Positions 409 to 61,904 of a stretch of 64,000 nt of DNA are shown here, piece after piece. Position numbers and translations under genes: made by a program. The stretch's first letter is position 1, and each line of letters begins with the position of its first letter. The notes under the pieces were generated by a model. It ran no database searches. It saw nothing but the letters and a program-made list of their open reading frames with translations, and was not told where the DNA came from. This DNA comes from Chiloscyllium plagiosum (lineage: Eukaryota). The stretch covers positions 372,536 to 436,535 of the forward strand of contig NC_057753.1 in assembly GCF_004010195.1 (NCBI RefSeq), read 5' to 3'.

Positions 409-697
409 GGCAAATTTGCAGACGGGAAACGCAAATCGTCTCGATAACAGACACTCGACTCATCAGGACCTGAATATCACTGCACTTTTAAAGGGAGATG
501 GAAAAATATTTTCAACATCGGTGTGACTGGAAACAATCACTTGTGAACACACCCTAGTGAGATATACAAGTGAACTGACTGTGGGAAGAGCCTTAACCAG
601 TTAAAAGGCATCACGTCATTTACAGTGGGGAGAAACTGTTTGTGAACGATCATACAACCAATGGTCAGACTTGGAGAAATAAGAGGAGAGCAGAACA
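409..697 (+). pseudogene. Decayed zinc-finger units in the 5' part of the ZNF exon
   Basis: Frameshifted or stopped remnants such as TDCGKSLNQL...HHVIYSGEKLF between the acceptor and the ATG. Confidence 0.6.
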
Positions 698-1375
698 ATG
701 AAGAAACCATGGAAATGTGGGGACTGTGGGAAAAGATTCAAGCAGCCATCTCTGCTGGAAATCCATCGGCGCAGTCACACCGGGGAGAGGCCGTTCACCT
801 GCTTTGAGTGTGGGAAGGGATTTGCTGCTGCCTGCAATCTTCAGACACACCAGCGGCTTCACACCGGGGAGAGGCCGTTTGTCTGCTCAGACTGCGGGAA
901 GGCATTCAGTGATTCGTCCAGTCTGCGCAAGCACCAGCGTGTCCACACCGGGGAGAGACCATTCACCTGCACCGAGTGTGGGAAGGGGTTCATTGATTCC
1001 TCTAACCTCTTGACGCACCAGCGGCGAAGCCACGCCGCGGAGAGGCCGTTCGTCTGCTCTGACTGCGGGAAGGGCTTCGGTGATTCGTCGTCCCTGCTGA
1101 CACACCAGCGGGTTCACACCGGGGAGAGGCCGTTCGCCTGCTCCGAGTGCGGGAAGGGCTTCGGTGACGCATCCACCCTGAGGAAGCACCGCCGTGTTCA
1201 CACCGGGGAGAGGCCGTTCACCTGCCCCGAGTGCGGGAAGGGGTTCACTCAGTCCACGCACCTCTTGACACACCAGCGGGGCCACACTGGTGAGAAACCG
1301 TTCGCCTGCTCGGTGTGCGAGAAGAGATTCACCCGGTCATCCACCCTGCAGATGCACCAGCGAGTTCACAAGTGA
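698..1375 (+). CDS. C2H2 zinc-finger protein, 8 tandem fingers, no effector domain in this exon (225 aa)
   Basis: Eight CxxC-x12-H-x3/4-H units with TGERPF linkers. In-frame TAA at 680-682 precedes ATG 698. Polypyrimidine tract and AG acceptor at 407-408. Confidence 0.93.
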
Positions 1376-3404: not shown

Positions 3405-3910
3405 GTACTGTGTTCTGTTTTGGGGTCAACACTTTAGGAAGGATGTGAAAGCATTGGAGAGGCATGGAAAAGATTCAGAAGAAAGGGATGGGGAATTCCA
3501 GAAACATGGATAAATTGAGGAAGTTGATGCTGTTGGTCCTGAAGAGAAAGAGATTAAAGGAGGTTTTAAATAAGGGGTGTTCAAGGGTCTCTGAATAGGT
3601 GGGTAGTCAGAAACTGCTCCTCTTGTCAGACGGATGAAGAATCACGGGATGCAGACTTTAAAACGATAGATAGAAAAGTGACAAGAGAAAGGGAATAGTT
3701 TTACAACACACGAGTTGAGGATCTGGAACACACCACCTGAGAGTCCGGTGGAGATAGATTTGATAGAGGCGTTCAAGAGAGAACTGGATCGTTATCTGAA
3801 AAGCAGAAATATATTGGGCTGTGGAGAAATGGCAAACAGGTTGAACAAGTTGATTTCCCTCTTTGGAGGGCCAGCGTGGACACAATGGACCAAATGTGTA
3901 ACCATTCCAT
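3405..3910 (+). mobile_element. Old CR1 LINE 3' fragment
   Basis: Degenerate RT C-terminus (WNTPPESPVE...FKRELDRYL) and 3' tail. Confidence 0.65.
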
Positions 3911-4256
3911 GACATTATCATAATGGGCACTACAACCTTTGTCTTTAATCCGAGGACTTGTGACTGAAAGCAATTTGCAAGAAAAAAATCAACTTTACCT
4001 TTACTACATTTTATGTTCTTAATTTGGAACCACCAGAATGTCCTATAACTTTCCACTGATTAAATCTTCAGTTTGAAGCGTGCTAATTCATCACAATTCC
4101 TCATTGCCATAGTGTAATAGAGTCATACTGAGTTTGGAAGTTTTTACTCTGATTCTGTCTTCACAGAAGCTGCCAGACCTGCTGAGGTTCTCCAGTACTT
4201 GCTGTTTTTAACTCCCTGTATTATGGGATTAGTACAGTCAGGGGGATAGATCCCTG

Positions 4257-7240: not shown

Positions 7241-8001
7241 AGATTACTTTTTGTTTTAGAATTTTGCGGCTTAACAAAATTGAGACTTGCACCGTGGATT
7301 TCGATCTTTGCGGTCAAGTCACAGCTAATTGATGGGGCTGAGCAGCGAGGAGTGGCCGTAACCCTGCTTTCCCCACTGCTGCTGGGTCCAGATGTTTCAC
7401 CAAAGCTGGTGGGGTGATGGGACGCTGCAAGCTGAGCACAGAGGGGGCTGTGGAGCATGGAAGGAAGTCTCCAATTGGGATGCGCAGCAGGTTGTCCAAG
7501 GAGGTGGGGGGAAGGTAGGAGAAGGGAGGGGGCAGAAGATGTGCCCAGGGAGAAGTGAGGTTTCAGAGTAGGGTCGGGTCCTGAGGAAGGAGGCCAAGGG
7601 CAGGACCGCATCCAAATTCACGCGGCTGGTTGGAGTTCTGAGGGAGTGTTGCGTAGGAGTTAGAATATTGAGTTTGAATCCCGTGCCTCCAATCCTGATG
7701 TTTGCAAACTCCTTTCACAAGGTACCGCCGGAGGCAGGGAGAGAACCTGGTGCATCGCTCGATTCAGCCGGGACCTGAATGTCATCAGCCTTTGATTGTG
7801 GAATGTTCGTCTCTGCAAAACGGTGTTAAACGTCAACGTGACCGGGAAAGCAGAAAGGTGTACACACGAGTGAGAGTGTTCCAGTTCACTGGCTGGAAAA
7901 CTTTAGCATTCTATGAAAACGCATCACAACGGGAACAAACGGGCCACGTGTTCTGAGTGTGGATGAGACTTTAATTGGATTAAGCAGACATAAGGCCGCC
8001 C

Positions 8002-9015
8002 ATGGAGAAGCCATGGAAATGTGTGGACTGTGGGAAGGGGTTTAATTATCCATCCCAACTGGAATCTCATCGACGCAGTCACACCGGGGAGAGACCATTC
8101 ACCTGCTGCGAGTGTGGGAAAGGGTTCAATGATTCGTCCAGCCTGCAGACGCACCAGCGAGTCCACACCGGCGAGAGACCATTCATCTGCTCGGAGTGCG
8201 GGAAAGGATTCACAGATTCATCTAACCTACAGAGGCACTGGCGTACTCACACCGGGGAGAGGCCATTCACCTGCTGTGAGTGCGGGAAGGGCTTCGGTGA
8301 TTCGTCCAGCCTGCTGACCCACCAGCGAGTCCACACCGGCGAGAGGCCGTTCATCTGCTCCGAGTGCGGGAAGGGCTTCGCGCAGTCAGCGAACCTGCTG
8401 GCCCACCAGCGGGTCCACACCGGGGAGAAGCCGTTCACCTGCCCCGTGTGCGGGAAGGCCTTCAGTCAGTCATCCAACCTGCTCACCCACCAGCGGCTTC
8501 ACACCGGGGAGAGGCCCTTCATCTGCTCCATGTGCGGGGAGGGATTCGACGACTCGGCTGCCCTCCAGAGCCACTGGCAGGTTCATTACGGGGAGAGGCC
8601 GTTCACCTGCGCGGAGTGCGGCAGGGGCTTCACTCACTCCTCCCACCTCCTGAAGCACCAGCGCAGTCACACCGGGGAGAGGCCGTTCACCTGCTCCGAG
8701 TGCGGCAAGGCCTTCAGCCAGTTCTCCAACCTGCTGACGCACGGCCGCACCCACACCGGGGAGAGGCCGTTCACCTGCTCTGACTGCCGGAAGGGCTTCA
8801 CTCAGTTATCCAGCCTGCTGACCCACAGGCGCACCCACACCGGGGAGAGGCCGTTCGCCTGCACCGTGTGCGGGAACGGATTCAGCGATTCGTCCACCCT
8901 GCGCAAACACCGCCTCGTGCACACCGGGGAGAAGCCCTTCACCTGCACCCTGTGTGGGAAGGGGTTCACCTCTTCCTCCAACCTCCTCAGGCACCAGAGC
9001 GGTCACCCCGACTAG
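8002..9015 (+). CDS. C2H2 zinc-finger protein, 12 tandem fingers, no effector domain in this exon (337 aa)
   Basis: Twelve intact C2H2 units with TGE(R/K)PF linkers. In-frame TAA at 7981-7983, then GCCGCCCATGG start. Decayed fingers lie upstream at about 7800-8000. Confidence 0.94.
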
Positions 9016-9403: not shown

Positions 9404-9634
9404 ACCAAAAGAGAAAATGCTGGAAAATCACAGCAGGTCTGGCTGCATCTGTAAGGAGAGAAAAGAGCTGATGTTTCGAGTCGAACTGACCCTTTGTCAA
9501 AGCTGATAAAGGGTCAGTTAGACTCAAAACGTCAGCCCTTTTCTCTCCTTACAGATACAGCCAGACCTGCTGTGATTTTCCAGCATTTTCTCTTTTGGTT
9601 TCAGATTTCAGCATCCGCAGTAATTTGCTTTTAT
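9404..9634. mobile_element. Palindromic Penelope-derived element (family C)
   Basis: About 95-bp inverted arms centred near 9500 with degenerate cores (GGGTCAGTTCGACTC-GAAAC). TSD TCATTGACTTG at 9391-9401 and 9635-9645. Confidence 0.75.
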
Positions 9635-29640: not shown

Positions 29641-29650
29641 AACCCTGCGG

Positions 29651-29801
<151 letters not shown>

Positions 29802-30301
29802 NNNNNNNNNNNNNNNNNNNNNNNNNNNNNNNNNNNNNNNNNNNNNNNNNNNNNNNNNNNNNNNNNNNNNNNNNNNNNNNNNNNNNNNNNNNNNNNNNNN
29901 NNNNNNNNNNNNNNNNNNNNNNNNNNNNNNNNNNNNNNNNNNNNNNNNNNNNNNNNNNNNNNNNNNNNNNNNNNNNNNNNNNNNNNNNNNNNNNNNNNNN
30001 NNNNNNNNNNNNNNNNNNNNNNNNNNNNNNNNNNNNNNNNNNNNNNNNNNNNNNNNNNNNNNNNNNNNNNNNNNNNNNNNNNNNNNNNNNNNNNNNNNNN
30101 NNNNNNNNNNNNNNNNNNNNNNNNNNNNNNNNNNNNNNNNNNNNNNNNNNNNNNNNNNNNNNNNNNNNNNNNNNNNNNNNNNNNNNNNNNNNNNNNNNNN
30201 NNNNNNNNNNNNNNNNNNNNNNNNNNNNNNNNNNNNNNNNNNNNNNNNNNNNNNNNNNNNNNNNNNNNNNNNNNNNNNNNNNNNNNNNNNNNNNNNNNNN
30301 N
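29802..30301. other. Assembly gap (500 N)
   Basis: Run of N. Confidence 1.
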
Positions 30302-30509
30302 TTGGATCTTTTGCGTCCTTTTGTAAAATATTTTAACTTTTCTCATGGCTGGGGAAATAGTGGCACTCGATTTTCAACACATTCCTCCAATAAGCTTCTG
30401 AACTTTTGAGGTATTGTTGTCACATGAACCTAAGTAGAGTGAAAAGTTTTGTTCAGTGAGCAGTACAGGCAGATCACAACAACCAAGGACATACAGACCC
30501 TAGGGTACT

Positions 30510-33735: not shown

Positions 33736-34509
33736 ATCACCCCCCCAGCAGGCAATGCTACCTTCCAAAATGGCACTTCCAATATGTCTTCATCTTTCTT
33801 CACTGGGGATTCAGACCCATCACAGAAACCTCCACTGGGCTCACCACATCTTGTGTATTCCTGCAACCACCTCTTCCTCTCTCGTCCAGAATCATGGGTT
33901 CCATTTATCCTTACTTTCCACCCCACCCACCTCCATATGCAGCAGATTGTCCTCCATCTAATACATCACCTCCAGTTTGATGTGAAACAAATTAGAAAAT
34001 AGGAAGAGGAGTAGGCCGTTCGGCCCTAAATTGCCAGCTCTGCCATTCAGTATGATCATGGCTGAAAATCCAATTCAGTTCCCTGTTCCTGCTTTCTCCC
34101 CCTACCCTTTGATCCCTTTAGCCCTAAGGGGCAGCACAGTGGCTCAGTGGTGAGCACTGCTGCCTCACAGCACCAGGGTCCCAGGTTCAATTCCAGGACC
34201 AGTTCCACCACAGAACACACCAGATGGCCTCCTTCTTTAGAGACCGCAATTTCCCTTCCCACGTGGTTAAAGATGCCCTCCAACGCATCTCGTGCACATC
34301 CCGCACCTCCGCCCTCAGACCACACCCCTCCAACCGTAACAAGGACAGAACGCCCCTGGTGCTCACCTTCCACCCTACCAACCTTCGCATAAACCAAATC
34401 ATCCGCCGACATTTCCGCCACCTCCAAACAGACCCCACCACCAGGGATATATTTCCCTCCCCACACCTTTCTGCCTTCCGCAAAGACCGTTCCCTCCGTG
34501 ACCACCTGG

Positions 34510-34894
34510 NNNNNNNNNNNNNNNNNNNNNNNNNNNNNNNNNNNNNNNNNNNNNNNNNNNNNNNNNNNNNNNNNNNNNNNNNNNNNNNNNNNNNNNNNNN
34601 NNNNNNNNNNNNNNNNNNNNNNNNNNNNNNNNNNNNNNNNNNNNNNNNNNNNNNNNNNNNNNNNNNNNNNNNNNNNNNNNNNNNNNNNNNNNNNNNNNNN
34701 NNNNNNNNNNNNNNNNNNNNNNNNNNNNNNNNNNNNNNNNNNNNNNNNNNNNNNNNNNNNNNNNNNNNNNNNNNNNNNNNNNNNNNNNNNNNNNNNNNNN
34801 NNNNNNNNNNNNNNNNNNNNNNNNNNNNNNNNNNNNNNNNNNNNNNNNNNNNNNNNNNNNNNNNNNNNNNNNNNNNNNNNNNNNNNNNNNNNNN
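34510..34894. other. Assembly gap (385 N)
   Basis: Run of N. Confidence 1.
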
Positions 34895-34995
34895 ATCCCC
34901 TCCCCCACTTACCCATTGTACTCTATGCTACTTTTCTCCCCACCCCACCCTCCTCTAGCTTATCTCTCCACGCTCCAGGCTCTCTGCCTTTATTC

Positions 34996-35032
34996 CTGAT
35001 GAAGGGCTTTTGCCCGAAACGTCAATTTCGAA
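34996..35032 (+). ncRNA. Minimal type-I hammerhead ribozyme motif
   Basis: CUGAUGA, stem II GGGC/GCCC with UUUU loop, GAAA, short stem III; possible short helix I UUC/GAA. Confidence 0.6.
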
Positions 35033-35552
35033 GCTCCTTGGATGCTGCCTGAACTGCAGTGCTCTTCCAGCACCACTGTAATCCAGAATCTGGTTTCCAG
35101 CATCTGCACTCATTGTTTTTACCCTGGGTGAAGACACTTCTCCCCATCTCAGTCCTCATCCTCAGACAGTGGCCCCTGGTTCCGGACTCCACAGTCATCA
35201 GGAACATCCTGCTTTGACCCTGTCTAATCCTGTCAGAATTATATCGATTTCGATGAAATCATTCCCATTCTTGTGAATTCTCGTGAACATAGTCCAAACC
35301 ATATCAGTCTGGTAAATGTTTGTTGTGCTCCCTCCATCACCAGAACCTTCTTCCTCAGATAAGGAGACCACAACTGCGGCCCGTCCTCACCCAGTGATGT
35401 GGTCTCACCAAAGCCCTGTACAATAGCAATAGGACAACCCTGTTCCTCTCGCTGAAAAGGCCAACATAACATTTGCCTCCTCCACTGCCCGCTCCGTCTG
35501 CATGTTTACGTTCACAACAAGGGCACACCCAGGTCTTGTTGCACCTCCCCCT

Positions 35553-37771: not shown

Positions 37772-38216
37772 TAGGTGCCGGTGTTGGACTGGGGTGGACA
37801 AATTTAAAAATCACACCAGGTTATATTCCAACGGGTTTATTTATCTGATCTTTCATCAGGTGGTTGTGGAGTATAAGATCATAAGCCACAGAATTTATAG
37901 CGAAAGTTTACAGTGTGATGTGACTGAAATTATAGATTGGAAAAGACCTGGATTGTTTCTTAAGTTTCTCATCTTTTAGAATGAACACGTTGGTTTCAGT
38001 TCTTTCATAGGTAAATCGGAGAACTTATTTCAAAGTTACATTCTCAAGTGAATTTTAACAATAGGTGTCATGTTGCCTCAGATAATGCACTGAAGGTGTG
38101 ACATGGCACATGTGAGTCTGTCTGTGCCCCAATGGTCAGACTGATTCTAATCCAAAAAACAGATTGACAGAATCTGACATGGATTCAAGCAGTTTTGAAG
38201 AAAATAAAATGTGATT
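37772..38216 (-). mobile_element. Penelope-like family B, longer non-palindromic 3' fragment
   Basis: Same terminal sequence as the family B palindromes, extended by AT-rich upstream sequence also seen at 13990-14050. Confidence 0.7.
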
Positions 38217-38220
38217 ACTG

Positions 38221-39373
38221 ACTCCAGGCCCACTCCTGTCCTTTGGGGAGGGACATACACTGACCACCTGTGCACACGTGACTCCAGACCCACTCCTGTC
38301 ATTAGGGGAGGGACGTACACTGACCACCTGTGCACACGTGACTCCAGACCCACTCCTGACCTTTGGGGAGGGACATACACTGACCACCTGTACACACGTG
38401 ACTCCAGGCCCACTACTGTACTTTGGGGAGGGACATACACTGACCACCTGTGCACATGTGACCCAAGGCCCACTCCTGTCCTTTGGGGAGGGACATACAC
38501 TGACCACCTGTCTACACGTGACTCCAGGCCCACTCCTCTCCTTTGGGGAGAGACATACACTGACCACCTGCCTACACGTGACTCCATGCCCACTCCTGTC
38601 CTTTGGGGAGAGACATAGACTGACCATCTGTACACACGTGACTCTAGGCCCACTCCTGTCATTAGGGGAGGGACGTACACTGACCACCTGTCTACATGTG
38701 ACTCCTAGCCCACTCCTGTCCTTTGGGGAGGGACGTACACTGACCACCTGTCTACACGTGACTCCTAGCCCACTCCTGTCCTTTGGGGAGGGACGTACAC
38801 TGACCACCTGTCTACACGTGACTCCAGGCCCACTCCTGTCCTTTGGGGAGAGACATACACTGACCGCCTATCTACACATGACTCTAGGCCCACTCCTGTC
38901 ATTAGGGGAGGGACGTACACTGACCACCTGTCTACACGTGACTCCAGGCCCATTCCTGTCCTTTGGGGAGAGACATACACTGACCGGCTGTCTACACGTG
39001 ACTCCAGGCCCACTCCTGCCCTTTGGGGAGGGACGTACACTGACCGCCTGTCTACACGTGACTCCAGGCCCACTCCTGCCCTTTGGGGAGGGACGTACAC
39101 TGACCACCTGTCTACACGTGACTCCAGACCCACTCCTGCCCTTTGGGGAGGGACGTACACTGACCGCCTGTCTACACATGATTCCAGGTCCACTCCTCTC
39201 CTTTGGGGAGGGACATACACTGACAGCCTGTCTACACGTGACTCCAGACCCACTCCTGCCCTTTGGGGAGGGACGTACACTGACCGCCTGTCTACACGTG
39301 ACTCCAGGCCCACTCCTCTCCTTTGGGGAGGGACGTACACTGACAGCCTGTCTACACGTGACTCCAGGCCCAC
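38221..39373 (+). repeat. 60-bp minisatellite, 19.2 units, no indels
   Basis: Unit ACTCCAGGCCCACTCCTGTCCTTTGGGGAGGGACRTACACTGACCACCTGTCTACACGTG stays in register for 19 lines of 60. Confidence 0.97.
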
Positions 39374-39389
39374 GACAATGTCCTTAAGT

Positions 39390-39580
39390 CTCAACTGCTC
39401 TGCAAAAGAACCCAGCAACCCACCCCGATTAGAGGCAGCTCAAAACATGCGTGGAATGGCCTCTGAGAAGTCTTTCCATTGCCCATCCAGGTTTCATTGG
39501 GACTGTGTAACCAGAGAGAGGCAGTTCCCTTGCTCTGGCCGAGGGAACGGTTTTGCCCTTTCGTCAGACCCCCGGGGGCT
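39390..39580 (+). pseudogene. Decayed C2H2 zinc-finger remnant
   Basis: Translates to ...EKSFHCPSRF...TRERQFPCSGRGNGFALSSD, compared with [19 protein letters not shown]. Confidence 0.55.
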
Positions 39581-39582
39581 TT

Positions 39583-40845
39583 ACAGAATCCCCACAGAAT
39601 GGAAGCAGGCCGCTCGGCTCATCGAGTGCACAGCGACCCTTCAAAGAGCATCCCACCCAGACCCATTTCCCTACCCTATCACTGTAATTGTGTGACCAGC
39701 TTTTCATTCGAATTTCACCATGGTAGGATTCATACAACCCCAAGTGCGGAAAGAGGCCATTCGGCCCATCAAGTTCCCACCCTCACTCTCCAGTACTTTC
39801 CAGACCTAGCACCCAACCCAATCCCTGTATACACCATGGCCAATCCACCCTAGCCTGCACATCTCTGTGCACTACGGGTAATTTAGCATGGCCAATCCAC
39901 CCTAACCTGCACATCCCTGTGCACTATGGGTAATTTAGCATGGCTAATCCACCCTAACCTGCGCATCAACGTGCACTATGGGTAATTTAGCATGGCCAAT
40001 CCACCCTAACCTGCACATCCCTGGGCACTGTGGGTAATTTAGCACAGCCAATCCACCCTAACCTGCACATCTCTGGGCACTATGGGTAATTTAGCATGGC
40101 CAATCCACCCCAACCTGCACATCTCTGGGCACTATGGGTAATTTAGCATGGCCAATCCACCCTAGCCTGCACATCTCTGGGCACTATGGGTAATTTAGCA
40201 CGGCTAATCCACCCTAGCCTGCACCGATCTTTGAGCTGTTCTGTCGGCTCTTTGATCTTAATTACCCTAGACTCATTGCTCAGATATTAATTGACGCTTG
40301 GTTTTGTCCTTTGTGGTTCTTACTTATTATAGAATCCCCACAGTGTGGAAACAGCCCATTCGGCCTATCAAGTCCACGCCGACCCTCCAAAGAGCATCCC
40401 ACCCCCATCCCCCTTCTCTGTTCCTAAACCCCTGCATTTGCCCTGGCCAATCCACGAAGCCTGTACATTGTTGGACACGACAACACGGCCAATTCCCCCC
40501 CCAACCCGCACGTCTTTGGACTGTGGGAGGAAACCGGACCACCCGGGGGAAACCCACGCAGACACGGGGAGAATGTTCAAACTCCACACAGACAGTCGCC
40601 CTGAGGGTGGAATCGAACCGGGGTCCTGGCGCCATGAGACAGCAGCGCTGAACTGCCACTGCTGTATTGCGAGAAGCCATTCAGTTGCTCTCTGTCTGCC
40701 CACGCAGACACGGGGAGAATGTTCAAACTCCACACAAACAGTTGCCCCGAGGGTGGAATCGAACTGGGGTCCCTGGCGCCATGAGACAGCAGCACTGAGC
40801 TGCCACTGCTGTATTGCGAGAAGCCATTCAGTTGCTCTCTGTCTG
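39583..40845 (-). mobile_element. Cluster of HE1/V-SINE pieces; 52-bp array at 39835-40225; 146-bp direct duplication 40553-40698/40699-40845
   Basis: SINE tails, tandem units and duplicated head plus flank are directly visible. Confidence 0.82.
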
Positions 40846-43304: not shown

Positions 43305-43407
43305 CTCTACTTTTTGAACCTCCCCAACATTACACAAGCCTTACATTACTCAGTCATCCTACCCTCTAATAGACCAGTGTGTTGACACAGTGGGGGAGTG
43401 GCCACTT

Positions 43408-45110
43408 CGGAAAAGTAGGACCAGTCTTAAACCAGGAATCAAGCGGGCTAAAAGGGGTCATGAAATAGCTTTAGCGAGCAGAATTAAGGAAAATCCCAAA
43501 GCATTTTATTCTTATATAAGAAGCAAGCAGGTAACTAGAGAAAGGATTGGTCCACTAAAGGATAAGGAAGGAAGGCTGTGTGCTGAACCTGAGAGAATGG
43601 GTGAGATTCTGAATGATTACTTTGCATCAGTGTTCATTGAGGAGAGGAACATGATGAATGTTGAGATTAGAGATAGAAGTTTAATTAGTCTGGATCACGT
43701 TGGCATAAGTAGGGAATATGTGTTGGGTACGCTAGAGGTTATTAAGGTGGACAAATCCCCAGGACCAGATGAGATCTATCCCAGGTTGCTGAGGAAGGCA
43801 AGAGAGGAAAAAGCTGGGGCCCTGACAGATATCTTGGTGGTATCCTTAAATACAGATGAGGTGCCGGAGGACTGGAAGATTGCTCATGTTGTCCCCCTGT
43901 ACAAGAAGGGGTAGTAGGGATATTCCAGGTAACTACAGACCAGTGAGCCTGACATCAGTGGTGGGGAAGTTGCTGGAAAGGGTACTGAGAGATAGGATCT
44001 ATTTATATTTAGAAAAGAATGAGCTTATCAGTGATAGGCAACATGGTTTTGTAAGATCATGCCTTACCAGCTTCATAGAGTTCTTCGAGGAAGTGACCAA
44101 GTTGTTAGATGAAGGAAGGGCTGTTGATGCCATATACATGAACTTTAGTAAGGCGTTTGATAAGGCTCCTCATGGTAGACTAATGGAGAAAGTGATGTCA
44201 CATGGTGTGCAGGGGTGTTCTAGCTAGGTGGATAAAAAACTGGTTGAGCAACAGGAGACAGAGAGTAGTAGTTGAAGGGAGTTCCTCGAAATGGAGAAAG
44301 GTGACCAGTGGTGTTCCACAGGGGTCAGTGCTGGGGCCACTGTTGTTTGTAATATATATAAATGATCTGGAAGAGGGCACTGTTGGTATGATCAGCAAGT
44401 TTGCAGAGGAGTACAGGTCCATTGTACTCTGAAGGTTGCTGCGCAGGTGGATAGAGTGGTCAAGAAGGCATATGGTATGCTTGCCTTCATTGGACGGCGT
44501 ACTGAGTATAAGAGCTGGCAGATCATGTTAAAATTGTACAAGACATTGGTTCGGCCGCATTTAGAATACTGTGTACAGTTCTGGTCGCCACATTACCAAA
44601 AGGATGTGGACGCTTTGGAGAGGGTGCAGAGAAGGTTTACGAGGATGTTGCCTGGTATGGAAGGTAATAGCTATGAAGAGAGGTTGAGTAGGTTAGGTTT
44701 ATTTTCACTAGAAAAAAGGAGATTGAGGGGGGCCGTGATTGAGGTTTACAAAATCATGAAGGGTATAGACAGGGTGGATAGAGACAAGCTTTTTCCCAGG
44801 GTGAAGGATTCAATAAGGAGAGTTCGTGCTTTCAAGGTGAGAGGTGGAAAGTTTAAGGGGGTCACACGCGGCAAGTACTTCACACAGAGGGTGGTGGGCG
44901 TTTGGAACGCGTTGCCAGCAGAGGTGGTAGAGGCAGGCACGGTAGGTTCATTTAAGATGTGTCTGGACAGATGGCATGAGTAGGTGGGGAGCAGAGGGAT
45001 ACAGAAGCTTAGGAATTGATCAACAAGTTTAGACAGTACATTTGGATCGGCTCAGGATTAAAGGGCTGAAGGGCCTATTTCTGGGCTGTAAATTCTCTTT
45101 GTTCTTTGTC
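43408..45110 (+). mobile_element. CR1 LINE ORF2 (RT) and 3' UTR, frameshifted, with internal deletion
   Basis: KSPGPD, NYRPVSLTS, FSKAFDK and [13 protein letters not shown] motifs. Confidence 0.92.
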
Positions 45111-46922: not shown

Positions 46923-49790
46923 AAGAACAAAGAACAAAGAACATTACAACACAGGAACAGGCCCTTCGGCCCTCCAAGCCTGCACCGATCCAGACCCTCA
47001 AACTAAACCTGTCACCTATTTCCTAAAGATCTGTATCCCTTTGCCCCTGCCCATTCATGTATCTGTCCAGATACATCTTAAATGATGCTATCGTTCCCAC
47101 CTCTAACAGCTACTCTGGCAGTGCATTCCAGGCACCTGCCACCCTCTGCGTAAAGAACTTTCCACGTGTATCTCCCCTAAACTTTTCCCCTCTGACCTTG
47201 AATTCGTGACCCTGAGTAATTGAGTCCTGGGAAAAAGCTTCTTGCTATCCACCGTGTCTATACCTCTCATGATTTTTTAGACCTCAATCAGGTCCTCCCT
47301 CAACCTCCGTCTTTCCAATGAAAATATTCCTAATCTATTCAACCTTTCTTCATAGCTAGTGCTCTCCATACCAGGCAACATCCTGGTGAACCTCCTCTGC
47401 ACTCTCCAACGCATTCACATCCTTTTGGTAATGTGGCGACCAGAACCGTACACAGTATTCCAAATGTGGCCGAACCAAAATCTTATACAACTGTAACATG
47501 ACCTGCCAACTCTTGTACTCAATACCTGGTCAATTAAGGAATGCCTTCTTGGTCACTCTATCTATCTACGTTGCCACCTTCAGGGAACAATGAACTTGAA
47601 CACTCAGACCTCTCTCTACATCAATTTCCCCAGGACTCTTTAATTTACTGTATATTTCACTCTTGAATTGGAGCTTCCAAATTGCATCATCTTGCATTTG
47701 CCCAGATTGAACTCCATCTGCCATTTCTTTATCCAACTCTCCAATCTCTCTATATTCTTCTGCATTCTCTGACAGTCCCCTTCACTATCTGCAACACCAT
47801 CAATCTTAGTGTATTCTGCAAACTTGCTAATCAGACCACCTAGACCTTCCTCCAGATCATTTATGTATATCATTAACAACAGTGGTCCCAGCACGGATCC
47901 CTGTGGAACATCTCCAATGGGAATAGATCCTACTCCCTCAGTATCTTCTCCAGCAGCTTCCCTACCACTGACATCAAGCTCACATGTCTGTAATTACCTG
48001 TATGCTCCCTGCTACCCTTCTTAAACAAGGGGACAACATTAACAATTCTCCACTCCTCTGGGACCTCACCCGTGTTCAAGGATGTTGCAAAGATAACTAT
48101 TAAGGCCCCAGCTATTTCCTCTCTCGCTTCCCTCAGTAACCTGGGATAGATCCCATCCGGACACCTTAATGTCTTTCAGAATACAAACTTCCTCCCTCCT
48201 TATGCCAGCTTGACATAGAGTAATCAAAGATCTATCCCTAACCTCAATATCCTCCATGTCCCTCTCCTTGACGAATACTGATGCAAAGTAATCACTATTC
48301 TCCTTTGTCCTTGAGTGGGCCAACCCTTTCTCTAGTTACCATCTTGTTCCTTATAGATGAATAAAAGGCTTTGGGATTTCCTTAACTGTGCTTGCTAAAG
48401 ATATTTCATGACCTCTTTTAGCGCTCTTAATTCCTCATTTCAGATTGGTCCTACATTCCTGATATTCTTCCAAATCTTCATCTGTCTTCAGTCATCTAGA
48501 CCTTGTATGCTTCCTTTCCCCTCTTCGCTAGTCTCACAATTTCACCTGTCATCCATGGTTCCATAATCTTGCCATTTCTATTTCTCATTTCCACATGTCT
48601 GTCCTGTACTCTAATCAACCTCTCTTTAAACGCCTCCAATATATCAAATATGGATTTACCTACAAACAGCTGCCCCCAATCTGCACTCCCCAGCTCCTGC
48701 TGAGTTGTGGTAGAGTTGGCCTTCCCCCAATTTAGCACTCTTCCTTTAGGACCACTCTTGTCTTTGTCCACGAGTATTCTAAAACTTACGGAATTGTGAT
48801 CACTATTCCCAAAGTAATTCCCTCCTGGAACTTCAAACACCTGGCCGGGCTCATTCCGCAACCCCAGCTCCAGTATGGCCTCTTCCCAATCTGGACTATT
48901 TACATCCTAGAAAACTCTCCTGGATGCTCCTTACAAATTCTGCTCCATCTAGACCTCTAACACTAAGTGAATGCCAGTTAATGTTAGGAAAACTAAAATC
49001 TCCCATCACCACCACCCTGTTGCTCCTACGTCTTTCCATAATCTGTTTACATATTTGTCCTTCTTTCTCACGCTCGCTGGTGGGAGACCTGCAGTACAGC
49101 CCCAACATTGTTACCACACCCTTCCTATTTCTGAGCTCTGTCCATATTGCCTCACCGCTCGAGTCCTTCATAGTGCCCTCCTTCAGCACAGCTGTGACAG
49201 CTTCTCTGACCATTAATGCAACTCCTCCACCTCTTTTACCTCCCTCTCTATCCCACCTGAAGCATCGATATCCTGGGATATTTAGTTGCCAATCTTGCTC
49301 TTCCCTCAACCAAGTCTCAGTATTAGCAATAACATCATACTCCCAGGTACTACTCCAAGCCCTAAGTTCATCTGCCTTACCTACTACACTTATTGTATTA
49401 AAACAAATGCACCTCAGACCACCTGTCCCTTTGCGTTCATCATCTGTTCCCTGTGACTCTTCCCCTTTGTCACGCTGACTTTATTATCTAGCTCCTTACA
49501 GGTTTTAGTTACTACCTCCTTCCTGACCACGAACCTCCTCATTTGCTTCCCATCCCCCGCCACATTAGTTTAAATCCTCCCCAGCAGCGTTAGCAAAAGC
49601 ACCCCCAAGGATATTGGTTCCAGTCTGGCCCGGTGTAGCTCGTCTGATCTGTAATAGTCCCACCACCCCCAGAACTGGTCCCAATGTCCCAGAAATCTGA
49701 ACCCCTCTGTCCTGCACCATCTCTCAAGCCTGCTTATTCTTTTATTCCTGCTCTGACTAGGCACTGGTAGCAATCCTAAGATTAAGGATT
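46923..49790 (-). mobile_element. Long CR1 LINE (ORF1 end, endonuclease, deleted RT, 3' UTR)
   Basis: GFRFLGHWDQFWG (ORF1), NIPGYRCFRWDR...VVMGDF...SDHN (APE endonuclease), LGPLL...KFA (RT). Confidence 0.9.
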
Positions 49791-50499: not shown

Positions 50500-52003
50500 T
50501 CAAAGAACAAAGAAAATTTACAGCCCAGGAACAGGCCCTTCGGCCTTCCAAGCCTGAGCCGATCCAAATGTACTGTCTAAACCTGTTGGTCAATTCCTAA
50601 GCATCTGTATCCCTTTGCTCCCCACCTACTCATGAATCTAACCAGACGCATCTTAAATGAATCTACCATGCCTGCCTCTACCACCTTTGCTGGCAATGCG
50701 TTCCAAACGCCCACCACCCTCTGTGTGAAGTACTTAGCGCGTGTGACCCCCTTAAACTTTCCACCTCTCACCTTGAAAGCACGACCTCTCCTTATTGAAT
50801 CCTTCACCCTGGGAAAAAACTTGTGTCTATCCACCCTGTCTATACCCTTCAGGATTTTGTAAACCTCAATCAGGTTCCCCCTCAATCTCTTTTTTTCTCG
50901 TGAAAATAAACCTAACCTACTCAACCTCTCTTCGTAGCTCACACCTTCCATACCAGGCAACATCCTCGTAAACCTTCTCCCACCCTCTCTAAAGCGTCCA
51001 CATCCTTTTGATAATGTGGCAACCGGAACTGTACACAGGATTCTAAATGCAGCCAAACCAATGTCTTGTACAATATTAACATGACCTGCCAGCTCTTATA
51101 ATCAATACCCCGTCCGATGAAGGCAAGCATACTATATGCCGCCTTGACCACTCTGTGCAGTCAACTTCAGGGTACAGTGGCCCTGCACTCCCAGATCTCT
51201 CTGCTCATCAGCTTTTCCCAAGGCTCTTCCATTCATTGTATAATTCGGTCTAGAATTAGACTTGCCTAAATGCATCACCCAAGGAGCAGGAGAATCGAAG
51301 TTTTGGGCATGAGCCCTTCTTCAGGAGCTCATGCCCGAAACGTCGATTTTCCTGCTCCTTAGATGCTGCCTGACCTGCTGCACTTTTCCAGCAACACATT
51401 TTCAGCTCTGATCTCTGCAGTCCTCACTTTCTCCTAAACGCATCACCTCACATTTGTTTGGATTGAACTCCATCTGCCACTTCTCCGCCCAACTCTCCAG
51501 TCTATCTATATTGTCCTGTACTCTCTGACAGTCCCTTATGCTTTCTGCTACTCCACCAATCTTTGTGTCATCTGCAAACTTGCTGATCATACCAACAGTG
51601 CCCTTTTCCAGATCATTTATATATATTACAATCAACAGTGGCCCCAGCACTGACCCCTGTGGAACACCACTGGTCACCTTTCTCCATTTCGAAAAGCTCC
51701 CTTCAACTACTACTCTCTGTCTCCTGTTGCTCAACCAGTTCTTTATTCAACTACTACTCTCTGTCTCCTGTTGCTCAACCAGTTCTTTATCCACCTAGCT
51801 AGAACACCCCTGCACACCATGTGACATCACTTTCTCCATTAGTCTACCATGGGGAACCTTATCAAACGTCTTACTAAAGTTCATGTATATGGCATCAACA
51901 GCCCTTCCTTCATCTATCAACTTGGTCGCTTCCTCGAAGAGCTCTATCAAGTTGGCAAGGCATGATCTCCCCCACACAAACCATGTTGCCTGTCACCGAT
52001 AAG
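50500..52003 (-). mobile_element. CR1 LINE RT and 3' UTR; family A palindrome inside (51280-51432)
   Basis: Close inverted match to 44030-45110; palindrome TSD CCTAAAYGCATCACC at 51265-51279 and 51433-51447. Confidence 0.9.
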
Positions 52004-52329: not shown

Positions 52330-53710
52330 ATAGAGTCATAGAGATGTACAGCATGGAAACAGACCCTTCGGTCCAACCCATCCATGCGACCAGATATCCC
52401 AACCCAATCTAGTCCCACCTGCCAGCACCCGGCCCATATCCCTCCAAACCCTTCCTATTCATATACCCATCCAAATGCCTCTTAAATGTTGCAATTGTAC
52501 CAGCCTCCACCACATCCTGTGGCAGCTCATTCCATACACGCACCACACTTTGTGTGAAAAGGATGCCCCGTAGGTCTCTTTTATATCTTTCCCCCCTCAC
52601 CCTAAACGTATGCCCTCGAACTCTAGACTCCCCGACCCCCGGGAAAAGACTTTGTCTATTTATCCTGTCCATGCCCCTCATGATTTTATAAACCTCTATA
52701 AGGTCACCCCTCAGCCTCTGACCCTGGCAACATCCTTGTAAATCCTTTCTGAACCCTTTCAAGTTTCACAACATCTTTCCAATAGGAAGGAGACCAGAAT
52801 TGCACGCAATTTTCCAACAGTGGCCTTACCAATGTCCTGTACAGCTGCAACATGACCTCCCAACTCCTGTACTCAATACTCTGACCAATAAAGGAAAGCA
52901 TACCAAATGCCGCTTTCACTATCCTATCTACCTGCGACTCCACTTTCAAGGAGCTATGAACCTGCACTCCAAGGTCTCTTTGTTCAGTAACACTCCCTCG
53001 GACCTTACCATTAAGTGTATAAGTCCTACTAACATTTGCTTTCCCAAAATGCAGCACCTCACATTTATCTGAATTAAACTCCACCTGCCACTTCTCAGCC
53101 CATTGGCCCATCTGATCAAGATCCCATTGTAATCTGAGGTAACCTTCATCGCTGTCCACTCCACCTCCAATTTTGGTGTCATCTGCAAACTTACCAACTA
53201 TACTTATGCTCGCATCCAAATCATTTATGTAAATGACAAAAAGTAGAGGGCCCAGCACCGATCCTTGTGGCACTCCACTGGTCACAGGCCTCCAGTCTGA
53301 AAAACAACCCTCCACCACCACCCTCTGTCTTCTACCTTTAAGCCAGTTCTGTATCCAAATGGCTAGTTCTCTCTGTATTCCATGAGATCTAACCTTGCTA
53401 ATCAATCTCCCATGGGGAACCTTGTAGAATGCCTTACTGAAGTCCATATAGATCACATCCACTGCTCTGCCCTCATCAATCCTCTTTGTTACTTCCTCAA
53501 AAAACTCAATCAAGTTTGTGAGACATGATTTCCCACGCACAAAGCCATGCTATCCCTAATCAGCCCTTGCCTTTCCAAATATATGTACATCCTGTCCGTC
53601 AGGATTCCCTCCAATAACTTGCCCACCACTGACGTCAGGCTCACTGGTCTATAGTCGATGATACAAATATCTCAGCAAGGGGCCCAGCAATCACTTCCCT
53701 AGTTTCCCAT
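52330..53710 (-). mobile_element. Young CR1 LINE with 278-aa open RT segment
   Basis: ORF 52704-53540 has [22 protein letters not shown] and FADD motifs. Confidence 0.93.
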
Positions 53711-56092
53711 AGATAGCGGCCCTTAAAGATCAATGAGGGTGCCTCTGTGTGGAACCACAAGAGATGGATGAGATACCAAATGGACATTTCATTTCCCTGT
53801 ATTTACAGTGAAGAAAAGATGTGCAGCGAAGGAATTCAGGGGAGTAAATAGTGATGTCTTGAGAAGTATCTATCTTGCAGAAGAGGAGGCGCTGGAAGTC
53901 TTAAAATGCACAAATGCAGCGAAGTCCCAGATACCTGATCAGGTGTTTTCCAGAACTTTGTGGGAAGCTGGGGAGGAGATTGCTCGGGCCCCTTGCTGAG
54001 ATATTTGTATCATCAACAGCCACGGGTGAGGTATCAGAAGTCTGGAGGATCGTTAATGTGGTGCCACTATTTAAGAAAGGTGGTAAGGAAAAGCCAGAGA
54101 ACTGCAGACTGGTGAGCCTGACGTCAGGTGGCGGATAAGTTACTGGAGGGCAGTCTGCGGGACAGGATTTACATGTATTTCAAAAGGCAAGACCTGATTA
54201 AGAATAGTCAACATGGCTTTGTGCATGGGAGATCGTGTCCCACCAAGGTGATTGAGTTTTTTGAAGAGGTGACAAAGAAGATTGATGAAGGCAGAGCAAT
54301 AGACATTGTCTGTACAGACTTCAGCAAGGCCTTTGACAAGATTCCACATAGTAGACTGGTTAGCAAGGTGCGATCACATGGGGTCCAAGGAGAGCTAGCC
54401 AACTGGATACAAATTTGGCTTGAAGACAGAGGGTGGTGGTGGAGGGTTCTTTTTCAGACTGGAGGCCTGTGACCAACGGTGTGCCGCAAGGATCAGTGCT
54501 GGGTCCACTGCTTTTCTTCATTTATATAAACGCTTTGGATATGAAGACAGGCGATATAGTTAGTAAGTTTGCAGATGACACCAAAATTGGAGGTGTAGTG
54601 GACAGCGAAGAAGGTTAGCTCAGATTACAACAGGATCTCAATCAGATGGGCCAATGGACTGAGGAGTGGGAGATGGAATTTAATTTAGATAAATGTGAGG
54701 TGCTGCATTTTGGAAAAGCAAATCAGGGAAGGATTTGTACAGTTAATGGTAAGGTCCTAGGGAATGTTGCTGAACAATGAGATCTTGGAGTGAAGGTTCA
54801 TCTCTTTGAAAGTGGAGTTGAAGGTAAACAGGGTGGTGAAGGTGTTTGGCACGCTTGCCATCATTGGTCACTGCATTAACCTGGGGCATCATGTTGCGGA
54901 TGTACAGGACAGTGGTGAGAAGACATTTAGAATGCTGTATACAGTTCTGGTCTCCCTGCTATAGGAAGGATGTTGTGAAACATGAAAGGGTTCAGAAAAG
55001 ATTTACAAGTATGTTGCCAGGGTTGGAGAATTTGAGCTACAGGGAGATACTGAACAGGCTGGGATTGTTTTCCATGGAGCGTCGGAGGCTGAGGGGTCAC
55101 CTTATAGAGGTTTGTAAAATCATGAGGGGCATGGATAGGATAAATAGGCAAAGTCTTTTCCCTGGGGTGGGGGAGTCCAGAACTAGAGGGCATAGGTTTA
55201 GGGTGAGAGGGGAAAGATATAAAAGAGACCTAAGGGGCAACTTTTTCACACAGAGGGTGGTGGGTTTATAGAATGAGCTGCCAGAGAAAGTGGTGGAGGC
55301 TGGTACAATTGCAACATTTAAAAGGCATTTTGATGGGTATATGAACAGGAAGGGTTTGGAGGGACGTGAGCCGGGTGCTGGTAGGTGGGAGTAGATTGGG
55401 TTGGGATTGGCATGGACAAGTTGGACCAAAGGATCTGTTTATGTGCTATACATCTCTATGACTCTATGACTCCAAATAGGACTAGATTAGATTAGGATAT
55501 CTAGTTGGCATAGATGGGTTGGACCAAAGGGTCTGTTTCCGTGATATCTGACTCTATGACTTTGATATGAAGCAAATTTATTAGCTTAATCTACTTAATA
55601 TATATTGGAGATATATGCAAACTAGTGAGTGGAGTGGTAGGATTAAGAACGATACCTTCAAACCAGACCATTACAGGCTAATCATTACGGACTAATGGGA
55701 CTTGACAGTGAGCAATTGGAGCAAGTGGAAAAGCATGTCGAAAGCAGGCCTAATGCAAAATCAGGCAGCTTTCATTGGGAGGTAACGTTGTGACACTAAA
55801 CTGTCTGTGAGAACTGTCGTGTCGGGCCCCTGCAAGGTGAAGTCCGAGGGCAGGTAACACATGCATTCAGTTGATAACAAGTCTCACTGTCTTCTTATAA
55901 TCGCAAATCCCAGCCCGAGGTGAAGTTCACTGAATGGAGCATAGTCCCTAACGTTAGGACTATTCTGCATCTCAGATTACATGCTGTGTCTCCACGTTGT
56001 AGTACTTTCAGTACTTTTCCAGACATTCTGTTCCGCAGAAAACAAGTTTAAAACATCTCCAGATGACTCCATGTTAACTCAACAGAAGAATG

Positions 56093-60725: not shown

Positions 60726-61308
60726 TATGAGAAGTTGAGGGCGATGAGGAGTTTGCATGAAAGGGGAGTTGAGGCCTGGGACAGATCAGCCGTGATCTTG
60801 CTGAATGGCAGGGTAGGTTTGACGCACTTCTGATCCTATTTTTCTAACATTGTTATGACATCTGTGAGCCTCATGAAGCTTGGGAGGCACGAGTTGATGC
60901 GAGACTCTTTCAAATTGGCAACTGAGATTACATCGGCATCGGTCAAACGTAAAATGCACCAGTTCCTGCCCTTTTACCAGGGAAGCATTCACTCCAACAT
61001 CAACATTATCCAAAGCCTCTCATGTCAAGGTCGTCCAGGCAATACTCGCATAGGGAGGGGTGGTGGTGCAGCGTATTTATTGGAATGATACCTGAACATC
61101 AGGGATGAAAGTACCAGGAGACGTTACAGAAATCAGTGGTGCATTTCCAGGAATTTAGAAAAGCGTGAATTCATCAAAATCTGTGAAATGAGGTTAGTGG
61201 GCAGTGGTGAGACCACATGTGCACAGCCGTGCACATTACTGGTCACCTTATTCCAGGATGGATGGAAATATGTTGGATTCGGGTCACAGAGGCTTTACCA
61301 GACCTAAG

Positions 61309-61549
61309 CTGAAAATGTGTTCCTGGAAAAGCGCAGCAGGTCAGGCAGCATCCAGGGAACAGGAGAATCGACGTTTCGGGCATAAGCCCTTCTTCAGGAA
61401 GATTCTGAAGATTCTTCAGGATTCCTGAAGAAGGGCTTATGCCCGAAACGTCGATTCTCCTGTTCCCTGGATGCTGCCTGACCTGCTGCGCTTTTCCAGC
61501 AACACATTTTCAGCTCTGATCTCCAGCATCTGCAGACCTCACTTTCTTC
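61309..61549. mobile_element. Young palindromic Penelope-derived element (family A) with hammerhead cores on both strands
   Basis: About 94-bp arms with one mismatch; cores at 61373-61397 (minus) and 61425-61449 (plus); TSD TTACCAGACCTAAG at 61295-61308 and 61550-61563. Confidence 0.88.
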
Positions 61550-61589
61550 TTACCAGACCTAAGACCTGGAATGGCCAGATTGTCTTATG

Positions 61590-61904
61590 AGTCGGGAATG
61601 TGGTGTTGGAAAAGCACAGCAGGTTAGGCAGCATCCGAAGAGCAGGAGAGTCGACGGTTCGGGCAAAAGCCCTTCTTCAGGAATGAGGCCTCCTCCTCTC
61701 TCTGCAAGAACAAGCTCTCCTCCTCTCTCTACAAGTATCTTGAAGACGTTCTCCTCCTCTCTCTACAAGGGCCTCATTCCTGATGTAGGGCTTTTGCCCG
61801 AAATGTCGATTTTCCTGCTCCTCGGATGCTGCCAGACCTGCTATGCTTTTCCAGCACCACACTCTCGACTCTGACTGTCCAGCATCTGCAGTCCTCACTT
61901 TCGC
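61590..61904. mobile_element. Older family A palindrome with repetitive spacer
   Basis: Inverted arms; spacer has three CTCCTCCTCTCTCTRCAAG units; degenerate TSD GCCAGATTGTCTTATGAG / GCCAGGTAGTCTTCTGAG. Confidence 0.78.

What the first reader, a model, noticed from the sequence alone, without database searches (positions are those of the whole stretch)
61295..61563. Palindromic mini-retroelements carrying hammerhead-ribozyme cores on both strands
Seen: a 240-bp insertion made of about 94-bp inverted arms, each containing CTGAAGA-AGGGC-TTAT-GCCC-GAAAC-GTCGA-TTC, flanked by a perfect 14-bp direct repeat. About ten insertions with this hairpin architecture occur in 64 kb (2914, 6094, 9404, 13905, 27452, 33257, 36204, 51280, 56093, 61309, 61590). 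Known: Penelope-like elements carry minimal hammerhead motifs in their pseudo-LTRs, often have an inverted pLTR, and minimal hammerheads are thought to cleave as dimers. Inference: this genome holds a very abundant class of non-coding ribozyme/hairpin retroposons. They are either extreme 5' truncations of PLEs or independently mobilised retrozyme-like units. Any transcript crossing one, from either strand, gains a long dsRNA hairpin and a ribozyme core.
Basis: partly seen in the sequence, partly recalled or inferred. Interest (0 to 1): 0.78.

Follow-up and report, generated by a model that had tools for sequence, protein, structure and literature searches.

The report
Penelope hairpin stubs record capped RNA
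This 241-base hairpin is a one-off insertion made of two back-to-back stubs of an abundant Penelope-like jumping gene, a known layout and not a self-spreading ribozyme element, and its many sister copies stop at one spot with an extra G, which likely marks the capped start of the element's RNA and so hints at how these poorly understood elements copy themselves.

Summary
The hairpin is real: 241 bp, 94-nt arms, 14-bp target duplication, and an empty site in a related organism. Both arms are the hammerhead-bearing end (pLTR) of a protein-coding, Neptune-type Penelope-like element (PLE). An inverted pLTR with a tail at one end is a published PLE layout. Independent mobilisation is refuted: 49 different junctions among 52 sampled hairpins, and this junction occurs once in the genome. 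Minimal hammerheads are real (56 per Mb, 0 in controls; covariation across families), but 3 of 52 hairpins keep both cores, the duplex is predicted to swallow the fold, and copy ends do not mark the cleavage site. The added value is mechanistic: 65 of 140 arms stop within 10 nt of one position, 30-33 nt behind a TATA-like box in three families, with an excess G (44 of 71 versus 23 of 94). Best reading: both target nicks prime reverse transcription at two sites near the 5' end of capped, uncleaved RNA; the copies run off the cap and are end-joined. I found no paper stating this, but this scan has reported it repeatedly on other DNA.

The parts
61295..61308 (+). left copy of the 14-bp target-site duplication; its last two bases (AG) also match the element at +94/+95 (microhomology at the short arm's outer end)
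   Evidence: empty site in run X16
61309..61400 (-). short, tail-less arm: element positions +2 to +93 (+1 = A of ATTCCTGA), antisense on the + strand
   Evidence: short arms end at +92..+102 in most sampled hairpins
61370..61400 (-). minimal type I hammerhead on the - strand (C3 at 61397; predicted cut between 61370 and 61369)
   Evidence: cut site inferred from the hammerhead consensus
61401..61420 (+). 20-nt junction filler, unique in the genome; by eye a near-copy of the RNA 5' end (GATTCTGAAGA) plus a copy of the left arm's end (TTCTTCAGG); its last base is the G in front of +1
   Evidence: sequence; one match genome-wide; fillers are templated from this region
61421..61515 (+). long arm, element positions +1 to +95; +1 is the inferred capped transcription start and the first base of hammerhead helix I
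61421..61456 (+). minimal type I hammerhead: helix I 5' side ATTC, core CTGAAGA 61425-61431, bulged A, stem II GGGC-TTAT-GCCC, GAAA, CGTC, predicted cut between 61452 and 61453
61516..61549 (+). one-sided PLE 'tail' (+96 to +129); in long copies it runs on into the 5' part of the coding region
61550..61563 (+). right copy of the target-site duplication
61590..61902 (.). neighbouring older family A hairpin (arms 87% complementary, both cores changed); its loop holds pieces of the element's +175..+208 region
34197..35125 (+). 3' part of an older-subfamily coding copy of the same PLE (ORF fragment, assembly gap, pLTR with hammerhead at 34996, tail)

Best explanation
The hairpin is a single insertion of two head-to-head stubs of the hammerhead-bearing end of a Penelope-like retroelement, and it likely arose when both nicked strands of the target primed reverse transcription near the start of the element's capped RNA. 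Steps. (1) Shown: a coding PLE with this end exists in the genome; the insertion duplicated 14 bp. (2) Inferred: a tandem source copy is transcribed by Pol II from +1, about 32 nt behind an AT-rich box, so the mRNA starts at hammerhead helix I. (3) Inferred, by analogy with the anole PLE in vitro: the GIY-YIG endonuclease cuts both strands about 14 nt apart; one 3' end primes at the tail end (+124..+131), the other at +92..+102, helped by a few paired bases. (4) Inferred: each cDNA is short because priming is internal and close to the RNA's 5' end; it passes the uncleaved ribozyme, runs off the cap and often adds the C that reads as an extra G. (5) Inferred: the two cDNA ends are trimmed and joined by microhomology or short templated fill-in, which makes every junction different. 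(6) Inferred: the product lacks the upstream AT-rich box and the ORF and is a dead end; in read-through RNA it forms a 94-bp duplex that sequesters the ribozyme.
For: Parent: long copies continue upstream into a GIY-YIG with the PLE cysteine pair (Pfam GIY-YIG E 0.0066, below its cut-off) and downstream into an ORF with the DKG motif; an older-subfamily ORF holds YIDD and a CX4CXXC linker; pLTR-to-pLTR units of about 3.8-3.9 kb with gaps. Sample picked by the tail alone (first 90 of 32,410 exact matches; 88 loci after dropping two duplicates): 52 hairpins, 36 lone. Inner ends: 65 of 140 arms at -2..+7 (6.5 per nt) against 18 at +38..+90 (0.34 per nt); only 10 of 140 reach beyond -10 (read). 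The pile-up also holds for lone copies (23 of 36 at -4..+8) and for re-entry points in partial tandems (13 of 20 assessable, read by eye), so it is not a palindrome artefact. Genome-wide 69,159 matches to +2..+17 but 16,443 to -9..+17. Extra G: 59 of the first 100 junctions at +1; 44 of 71 after removing 25 fold-back joints, 3 older-parent read-throughs and 1 duplicate, against 26% expected (p 2e-10) and 23 of 94 at other positions (p 1e-6); family B 6 of 6 at its own stop against 5 of 26 (p 5e-4). An extra G marks the mRNA cap at full-length L1 insertions (PMC11702581, passage read). AT-rich box 36-37 (A), 38-40 (B), 35-37 (C) nt before the core, i.e. 30-33 nt before each family's stop. Two priming sites: 12 of 24 lone young copies end at +80..+99, 12 at +130..+142. 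In 27 of 52 hairpins the tail-less arm reaches further 5' than the tailed arm (17 by 10 nt or more), so neither arm is a plain copy of the other. Arms share subfamily variants (site 47: 38 same, 2 different, 49% different on permutation). Overlap of duplication and short-arm end averages 2.6 nt. Junctions: 22 microhomology, 5 blunt, 25 filler; fillers match the element's end (8.1 vs 4.7 nt shuffled, 15 fillers). No pile at the ribozyme cut: 1 of 121 arms starts at +33. The anole PLE cuts and extends both strands, starts at two internal sites that bound the tail, is a predicted dimer and uses uncleaved RNA (PMC11167929, first two parts read).
Against: No RNA 5' end was observed: 2,256 reads of run X21 on a long copy showed no place where many molecules begin (short-read single-cell poly(A) library, 2% read, weak test). 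Family A's AT-rich box is a weak TATA (TTTTATC). The D. virilis Penelope promoter is internal and TATA-less with the start some 120 nt before the hammerhead region (PMC2377424, passages; PMC4209133), so the layout is not universal. Family E did not test the prediction: most of 30 copies run far upstream and the few short ones end roughly 6-18 nt before the core (by eye). In family C only 4 of 9 junctions have G. The G control comes from another sample than the 100 rows, and both were tallied by hand. The anole paper reports priming without homology; here short matches are common. Three junctions recur in two loci each. Arms differ at diagnostic sites in 9 of 105 comparisons, above the 2% background (p 2e-4), so 'one RNA molecule' is not the rule for all. 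The tail-picked sample comes from the first 8 Mb of contig C1.
Confidence: 0.68

Rival explanations
1. Snap-back: one cDNA is primed at the tail, runs to the RNA's start, folds back and copies itself; the copy is joined to the other target end, and the centre of the palindrome is later revised.
For: Gives the same head-to-head layout and explains shared variants and templated fillers. Snap-back junctions are seen with R2 proteins (PMC11371274, figure-legend passage). Self-priming was proposed for PLE palindromes (PMC3846280, passage, on an antisense template).
Against: In 27 of 52 hairpins the tail-less arm holds 5' sequence missing from the tailed arm, which needs later deletion; the short arm's outer end coincides with the 3' end of half of the lone copies, so it is a priming site on RNA; target duplications stay intact in 47 of 52.
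Confidence: 0.14
2. The inner stop is not a transcription start but a reverse-transcriptase pause or RNA processing site at the front of the hammerhead fold; the copies are ordinary 5'-truncated 3' ends.
For: In families A and C the stop coincides with the first base of helix I. No RNA start was seen.
Against: Family B stops 8 nt before the core, 4-5 nt before helix I, with G in 6 of 6; the stop keeps a constant distance to the AT-rich box, not to the fold; a pause does not explain the extra G; an enzyme moving 5' has already passed the fold at that point.
Confidence: 0.1
3. The hairpins are non-autonomous units that are transcribed, processed by their ribozymes and mobilised whole.
For: Very high copy number (47 family A and 16 family B hairpins in 0.96 Mb); each has its own target duplication; three junctions recur in pairs. 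Tandem retrozymes derive from PLE pLTRs (bioRxiv 10.64898/2026.07.22.740005, abstract, parts 1-2 and passages).
Against: 49 distinct junctions of 52; this junction is single-copy; the shared 11-nt filler is at two nearby places only; the other two recurrences are plain microhomology joints; 30 of 52 hairpins have no intact core and 3 have two; no head-to-tail array; stem II is not predicted to form.
Confidence: 0.04
4. Inversion arose after insertion, by DNA-level fold-back repair, or is an assembly artefact.
For: The assembly has many gaps inside PLE copies; one sampled hairpin has two tails and no duplication (L181).
Against: One target duplication encloses both arms (47 of 52); the empty site is clean; orientation is 47 head-to-head to 1 tail-to-tail; opposite-strand joints appear in independent contigs.
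Confidence: 0.04

Closest known systems
Complex insertions of EN+ Penelope-like elements: pLTR, adjacent inverted 5'-truncated copy, 30-40-bp tail at one end (PMC3846280, PMC8557442; passages read)
   Same: Head-to-head inverted pLTR, tail on one arm only (34 nt here), target duplication, partial tandems, palindromic junction.
   Different: Here the unit is reduced to the two pLTR stubs with no ORF; order 10^5 copies by extrapolation; inner ends pile up at one position with an extra G, which I did not find in the passages read; those papers leave the mechanism open or propose antisense self-priming.
Minimal type I hammerheads (min-HHR) of metazoan PLEs (Cervera and De la Pena 2014, PMC4209133; first two of four parts read)
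   Same: Core CUGANGA/GAAA, extra base between 9 and 10.1, G10.1-C11.1, palindromic 15.2-16.2, no loop 3, U3-A8 core variant (family C), pairs on opposite strands 100-700 bp apart already noted there.
   Different: Stem II is 4 bp (A), 5 (B, C), 6-7 (E); helix I only 2-4 bp; cartilaginous fish are not named in the parts read; cleavage untested here.
Anole Poseidon (PAc) in vitro (Frangieh et al. 2024, PMC11167929; first two of four parts read)
   Same: Two reverse-transcription starts bounding the tail, both target strands extended, uncleaved RNA as template.
   Different: PAc is Penelope/Poseidon clade with the starts inside the ORF; this element has a Neptune-type linker and starts upstream of the main ATG; short target-RNA matches are common here; the paper does not treat inverted products or RNA 5' ends.
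L1 twin priming (PMC11702581, passages read)
   Same: Second priming by the other target end with microhomology, intact 12-18-bp duplication, end-joined centre, extra G at full-length 5' ends.
   Different: In L1 the two cDNAs copy adjacent parts of the RNA; here both copy the same first 95-130 nt, giving a palindrome.
Non-LTR retrozymes (bioRxiv 10.64898/2026.07.22.740005)
   Same: Non-coding, hammerhead-bearing, derived from PLE pLTRs.
   Different: Retrozymes are head-to-tail repeats with a ribozyme in each unit on one strand; these are head-to-head with unique junctions.

Membership tests
EN+ Penelope-like element (parent) | RT with DKG and YxDD motifs plus C-terminal GIY-YIG with two cysteines inside | tested here: met
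   DKG in a young copy, YIDD in older-subfamily copies, YCILC..LYIG at the 3' end of young copies; pieces from different gapped copies, no single intact ORF seen; Pfam gave only a sub-threshold GIY-YIG hit and nothing for 4 other pieces
EN+ Penelope-like element (parent) | pLTRs flanking the ORF, partial tandems | tested here: met
   (L408-L410, with gaps; L409 and L410 appear to be one locus)
EN+ Penelope-like element (insertion) | inverted 5'-truncated copy with tail at one end and target duplication | tested here: met
   52 of 88 loci; short arm lacks the tail in 51 of 52; duplication in 47 of 52
Neptune clade | CX2-5CxxC linker between RT and EN | tested here: met
   CHRRNCKTC in L413; motif defined in PMC8557442; shared with Nematis
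Neptune clade | RT phylogeny | not tested
   no reference sequences in hand; no tree built
Minimal type I hammerhead | conserved core, bulged base, stem II, palindromic 15.2-16.2, NUH | tested here: met
   56 per Mb vs 0 in controls
Minimal type I hammerhead | covariation | tested here: met
   across families stem II (GGGC/GCCC, GGAGC/GCTCC, GGGTC/GACTC), helix I (TC/GA, CAC/GTG, AGCT/AGCT, TCA/TGA vs CCA/TGG), 15.2-16.2 (CG vs GC) and C3-G8 vs U3-A8 change in pairs; read from listings, no covariance model built
Minimal type I hammerhead | self-cleavage as dimer or with the element's protein | not testable with these tools
   copy ends do not mark the cut (1 of 121)
Non-LTR retrozyme | head-to-tail units, each with a hammerhead on the same strand | tested here: not met
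   one sense core per strand
Non-LTR retrozyme / MITE-like unit | many copies of the same whole unit | tested here: not met

The most novel reading that the evidence does not exclude
The hairpins are a genome-wide fossil record of the PLE reaction: a dimeric enzyme primes both target nicks on the 5' leader of capped, uncleaved mRNA, and run-off at the cap followed by a jump to another template is what builds inverted pLTRs and partial tandems. The hammerhead, being the very first structure of the mRNA and uncut in the templates, then serves mainly to pair two element RNAs through its palindromic helix III and load them on the dimer, rather than to release units.
Probability: 0.2. Interest if true: 0.72.

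Novelty: new variant of a known kind. Interest (0 to 1): 0.42.

Why it matters
How PLEs make their tandem and inverted insertions is stated as undefined in PMC8557442. These stubs give testable coordinates: an RNA start, two priming windows and a 14-16-nt stagger, and they favour double priming on sense, capped RNA over antisense self-priming. They also mean that most 'truncated' copies may be complete copies of a short 5' leader. Separately, on the order of 10^5 near-perfect 50-100-bp hairpins in one vertebrate genome is a large potential dsRNA load; that part is untested. As a new element class or active ribozyme pair the finding does not hold.

Tried and rejected
Rfam scan of the window: no hammerhead family up to E 1. 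A C-to-G change specific to short arms, seen among loci picked by likeness to this hairpin, vanished in the unbiased set (47 same, 1 different): selection bias. An apparent peak of ends at the cleavage site (+33) came from a point change in my reference copy; after correction 3 of 140 and 1 of 121. The first 3'-end and duplication output had an off-by-one error, fixed. under-measures five arms that run further upstream; I corrected them. One search used 27 instead of 26 for the family B control; corrected. A 3' splice site as the cause of the stop was considered (as in D. virilis): family A has no AG at -1 and no end fell at the nearest AG (-21) among the 30 upstream-reaching copies; family C has an AG at its stop, but the stop keeps it. 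Sequencing runs: no RNA holder listed. Run X22 gave no reads; X21 showed arms in reads of both orientations, 94% running on into unrelated sequence, few reads on the ORF, no pile of starts or ends, and no A-to-G pattern beyond that of DNA-like contigs; X21 had no reads on this locus's flank, which is too thin to call it silent. Family E as a discriminating test was inconclusive. No covariance model, tree, structure or homologue search was run. Literature searches found no paper on cap run-off or an extra G in PLE stubs; the library lacks most subscription papers and Repbase, and I read no supplements, where shark hammerheads or PLE families may be listed.

Full report
Setting. The window is G000:C44:372536-436535 of a 3.56-Gb assembly, a C2H2 zinc-finger gene cluster rich in repeats. 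The repeats look like those of sharks; that label is recalled and was not tested.

The observation. It is an insertion: a contig of run X16, 96% like the left flank, continues from 61307 directly into the right flank. The other ten places are inverted insertions of four unrelated families, and only this one has two unchanged cores.

What the arms are. Long copies of the same end continue upstream into a GIY-YIG endonuclease region and downstream of the tail into an ORF with the PLE DKG motif. Older-subfamily copies show the YIDD motif and a CX4CXXC linker, which points to the Neptune/Nematis type (PMC8557442). A protein piece from the window drew 59,642 first-look candidates. Two or three gapped copies span pLTR to pLTR over about 3.8-3.9 kb. 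So each arm is the pLTR of a coding PLE. An inverted truncated copy with a one-sided 30-40-bp tail is described as typical of PLEs (PMC3846280, PMC8557442), and hammerhead pairs on opposite strands were noted in PMC4209133.

Abundance. In 100 evenly placed 10-kb stretches of large contigs (958,630 called bases) family A had 139 loci, 47 head-to-head and 1 tail-to-tail; family B 39 loci, 16 head-to-head. That extrapolates to order 10^5 hairpins if the rest of the assembly is alike. One 34-mer of the young subfamily's tail has 32,410 exact matches.

Independent mobilisation. I took the first 90 tail matches, dropped two duplicates and found 52 hairpins and 36 lone copies. Duplications of 11-18 nt (overlaps with the element included) flank 47 of 52 hairpins. 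The 52 have 49 different junctions. Two recurrences are plain microhomology joints; the third, an 11-nt filler, exists at exactly two places 114 kb apart. This locus's junction is single-copy. The units are therefore made anew at each site.

The hammerhead. A strict minimal descriptor hits 56 times in the 1 Mb and never in controls. Stems and even the C3-G8 pair change in concert between families, so the motif is selected in the parents. In the hairpins it is mostly lost or masked: both cores intact in 3 of 52, none in 30; stem II pairing probability 0.00 inside the hairpin against 0.90-1.00 in a lone arm. With head-to-head arms the antisense arm is always transcribed first, and the two cores lie on different strands, so they cannot form the cis dimer that minimal hammerheads need (PMC4209133). 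Copy ends do not mark the cut site (1 of 121).

The fixed inner end. With +1 at the A of ATTCCTGA (61421), 65 of 140 arms stop at -2..+7 and only 10 pass -10; those that pass end at scattered places out to about -480 and beyond. Lone copies (23 of 36) and re-entry points of partial tandems (13 of 20, by eye) share the stop. Genome-wide counts agree (69,159 versus 16,443; the shorter pattern also catches sister subfamilies). The base before +1 is G in 59 of 100 listed junctions and 44 of 71 after the exclusions named above, against 23 of 94 at other positions; within alone 9 of 16 versus 23 of 94 (p 0.016). Family B stops 8 nt before its core with G in 6 of 6; family C stops 4 nt before with G in 4 of 9. 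In all three the stop is 30-33 nt behind an AT-rich box, a canonical TATAAA in B and C; that this is normal TATA spacing and that TCATTCC fits the initiator consensus is recalled knowledge. An extra G is the recognised trace of the mRNA cap in full-length L1 insertions (PMC11702581). I read the stop as the capped transcription start. RNA reads did not show it.

Two primings. Outer ends are bimodal, near +94 and near +130, in hairpins and in lone copies alike, matching the two start sites that bound the tail in the anole PLE (PMC11167929). Either arm can reach further inward (27 versus 22, 3 equal). The arms share subfamily variants far above chance but differ in 9 of 105 comparisons, more than the 2% background: mostly one source, sometimes perhaps two RNAs. 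Centres are joined by microhomology or templated fill. Non-CpG difference between arms averages 2.0% (54 of 2,754), so this subfamily is young.

Verdict. The feature is real and ordinary in kind: the shortest form of a known PLE insertion layout, not a ribozyme retroposon class. Its worth lies in the junction statistics, which support double priming on capped, uncleaved RNA (confidence 0.68) over snap-back (0.14), pausing (0.10), whole-unit mobilisation (0.04) or artefact (0.04). I reached this reading (notes) before one search showed that earlier agents of this scan had reported the same on other windows and genomes; those notes are unchecked and are not counted as support. Papers: PMC4209133, PMC11167929 and the 2026 retrozyme preprint were read in their first two parts (the preprint also by passages); PMC3846280, PMC8557442, PMC8969392, PMC2377424, PMC11702581 and PMC11371274 by passages; no supplements.

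Noticed in passing
window 683-1375, 7984-9015, about 29650-30370: C2H2 zinc-finger exons; the window is part of a zinc-finger gene cluster.
   Followed up: no
window 9404-9634; L341-L370: Family C hammerhead uses the U3-A8 core variant (TTGACAA) consistently, with a palindromic AGCT helix I; at least 1,131 exact tail matches.
   Followed up: partly
L409 (about 278) and L410 (about 273), apparently one locus assembled more than once: A near full-length young copy whose 5' end lies at +31..+33, next to the predicted ribozyme cut; a single case.
   Followed up: partly
L181 and L185 (G000:C1:1800956 and 1914770): Two hairpins 114 kb apart share an identical 11-nt filler found nowhere else; one has two tails and no target duplication: local copy, conversion or mis-assembly.
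   Followed up: partly
L324, L335, L169, L067: Apparent chimeras in which an arm of one PLE family is joined to the start of another family's arm, suggesting template jumps between different element RNAs or nested insertion.
   Followed up: no
L191-L220: Short partial tandems whose 'internal deletion' ends at +1 in 13 of 20 assessable cases; may be jumps after run-off rather than deletions.
   Followed up: partly
window 38136-39700: Long tandem minisatellite open in several frames.
   Followed up: no
window 43318-44983, 48896-49480, 50577-51095, 52704-53549: Fragments of CR1/L2-type LINE coding sequence (label recalled); large inverted pair at 52956-54801.
   Followed up: no
L053 about 3955-4150; L412 about 3770-4010: Short tandem triplications inside the endonuclease region of PLE copies.
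   Followed up: no
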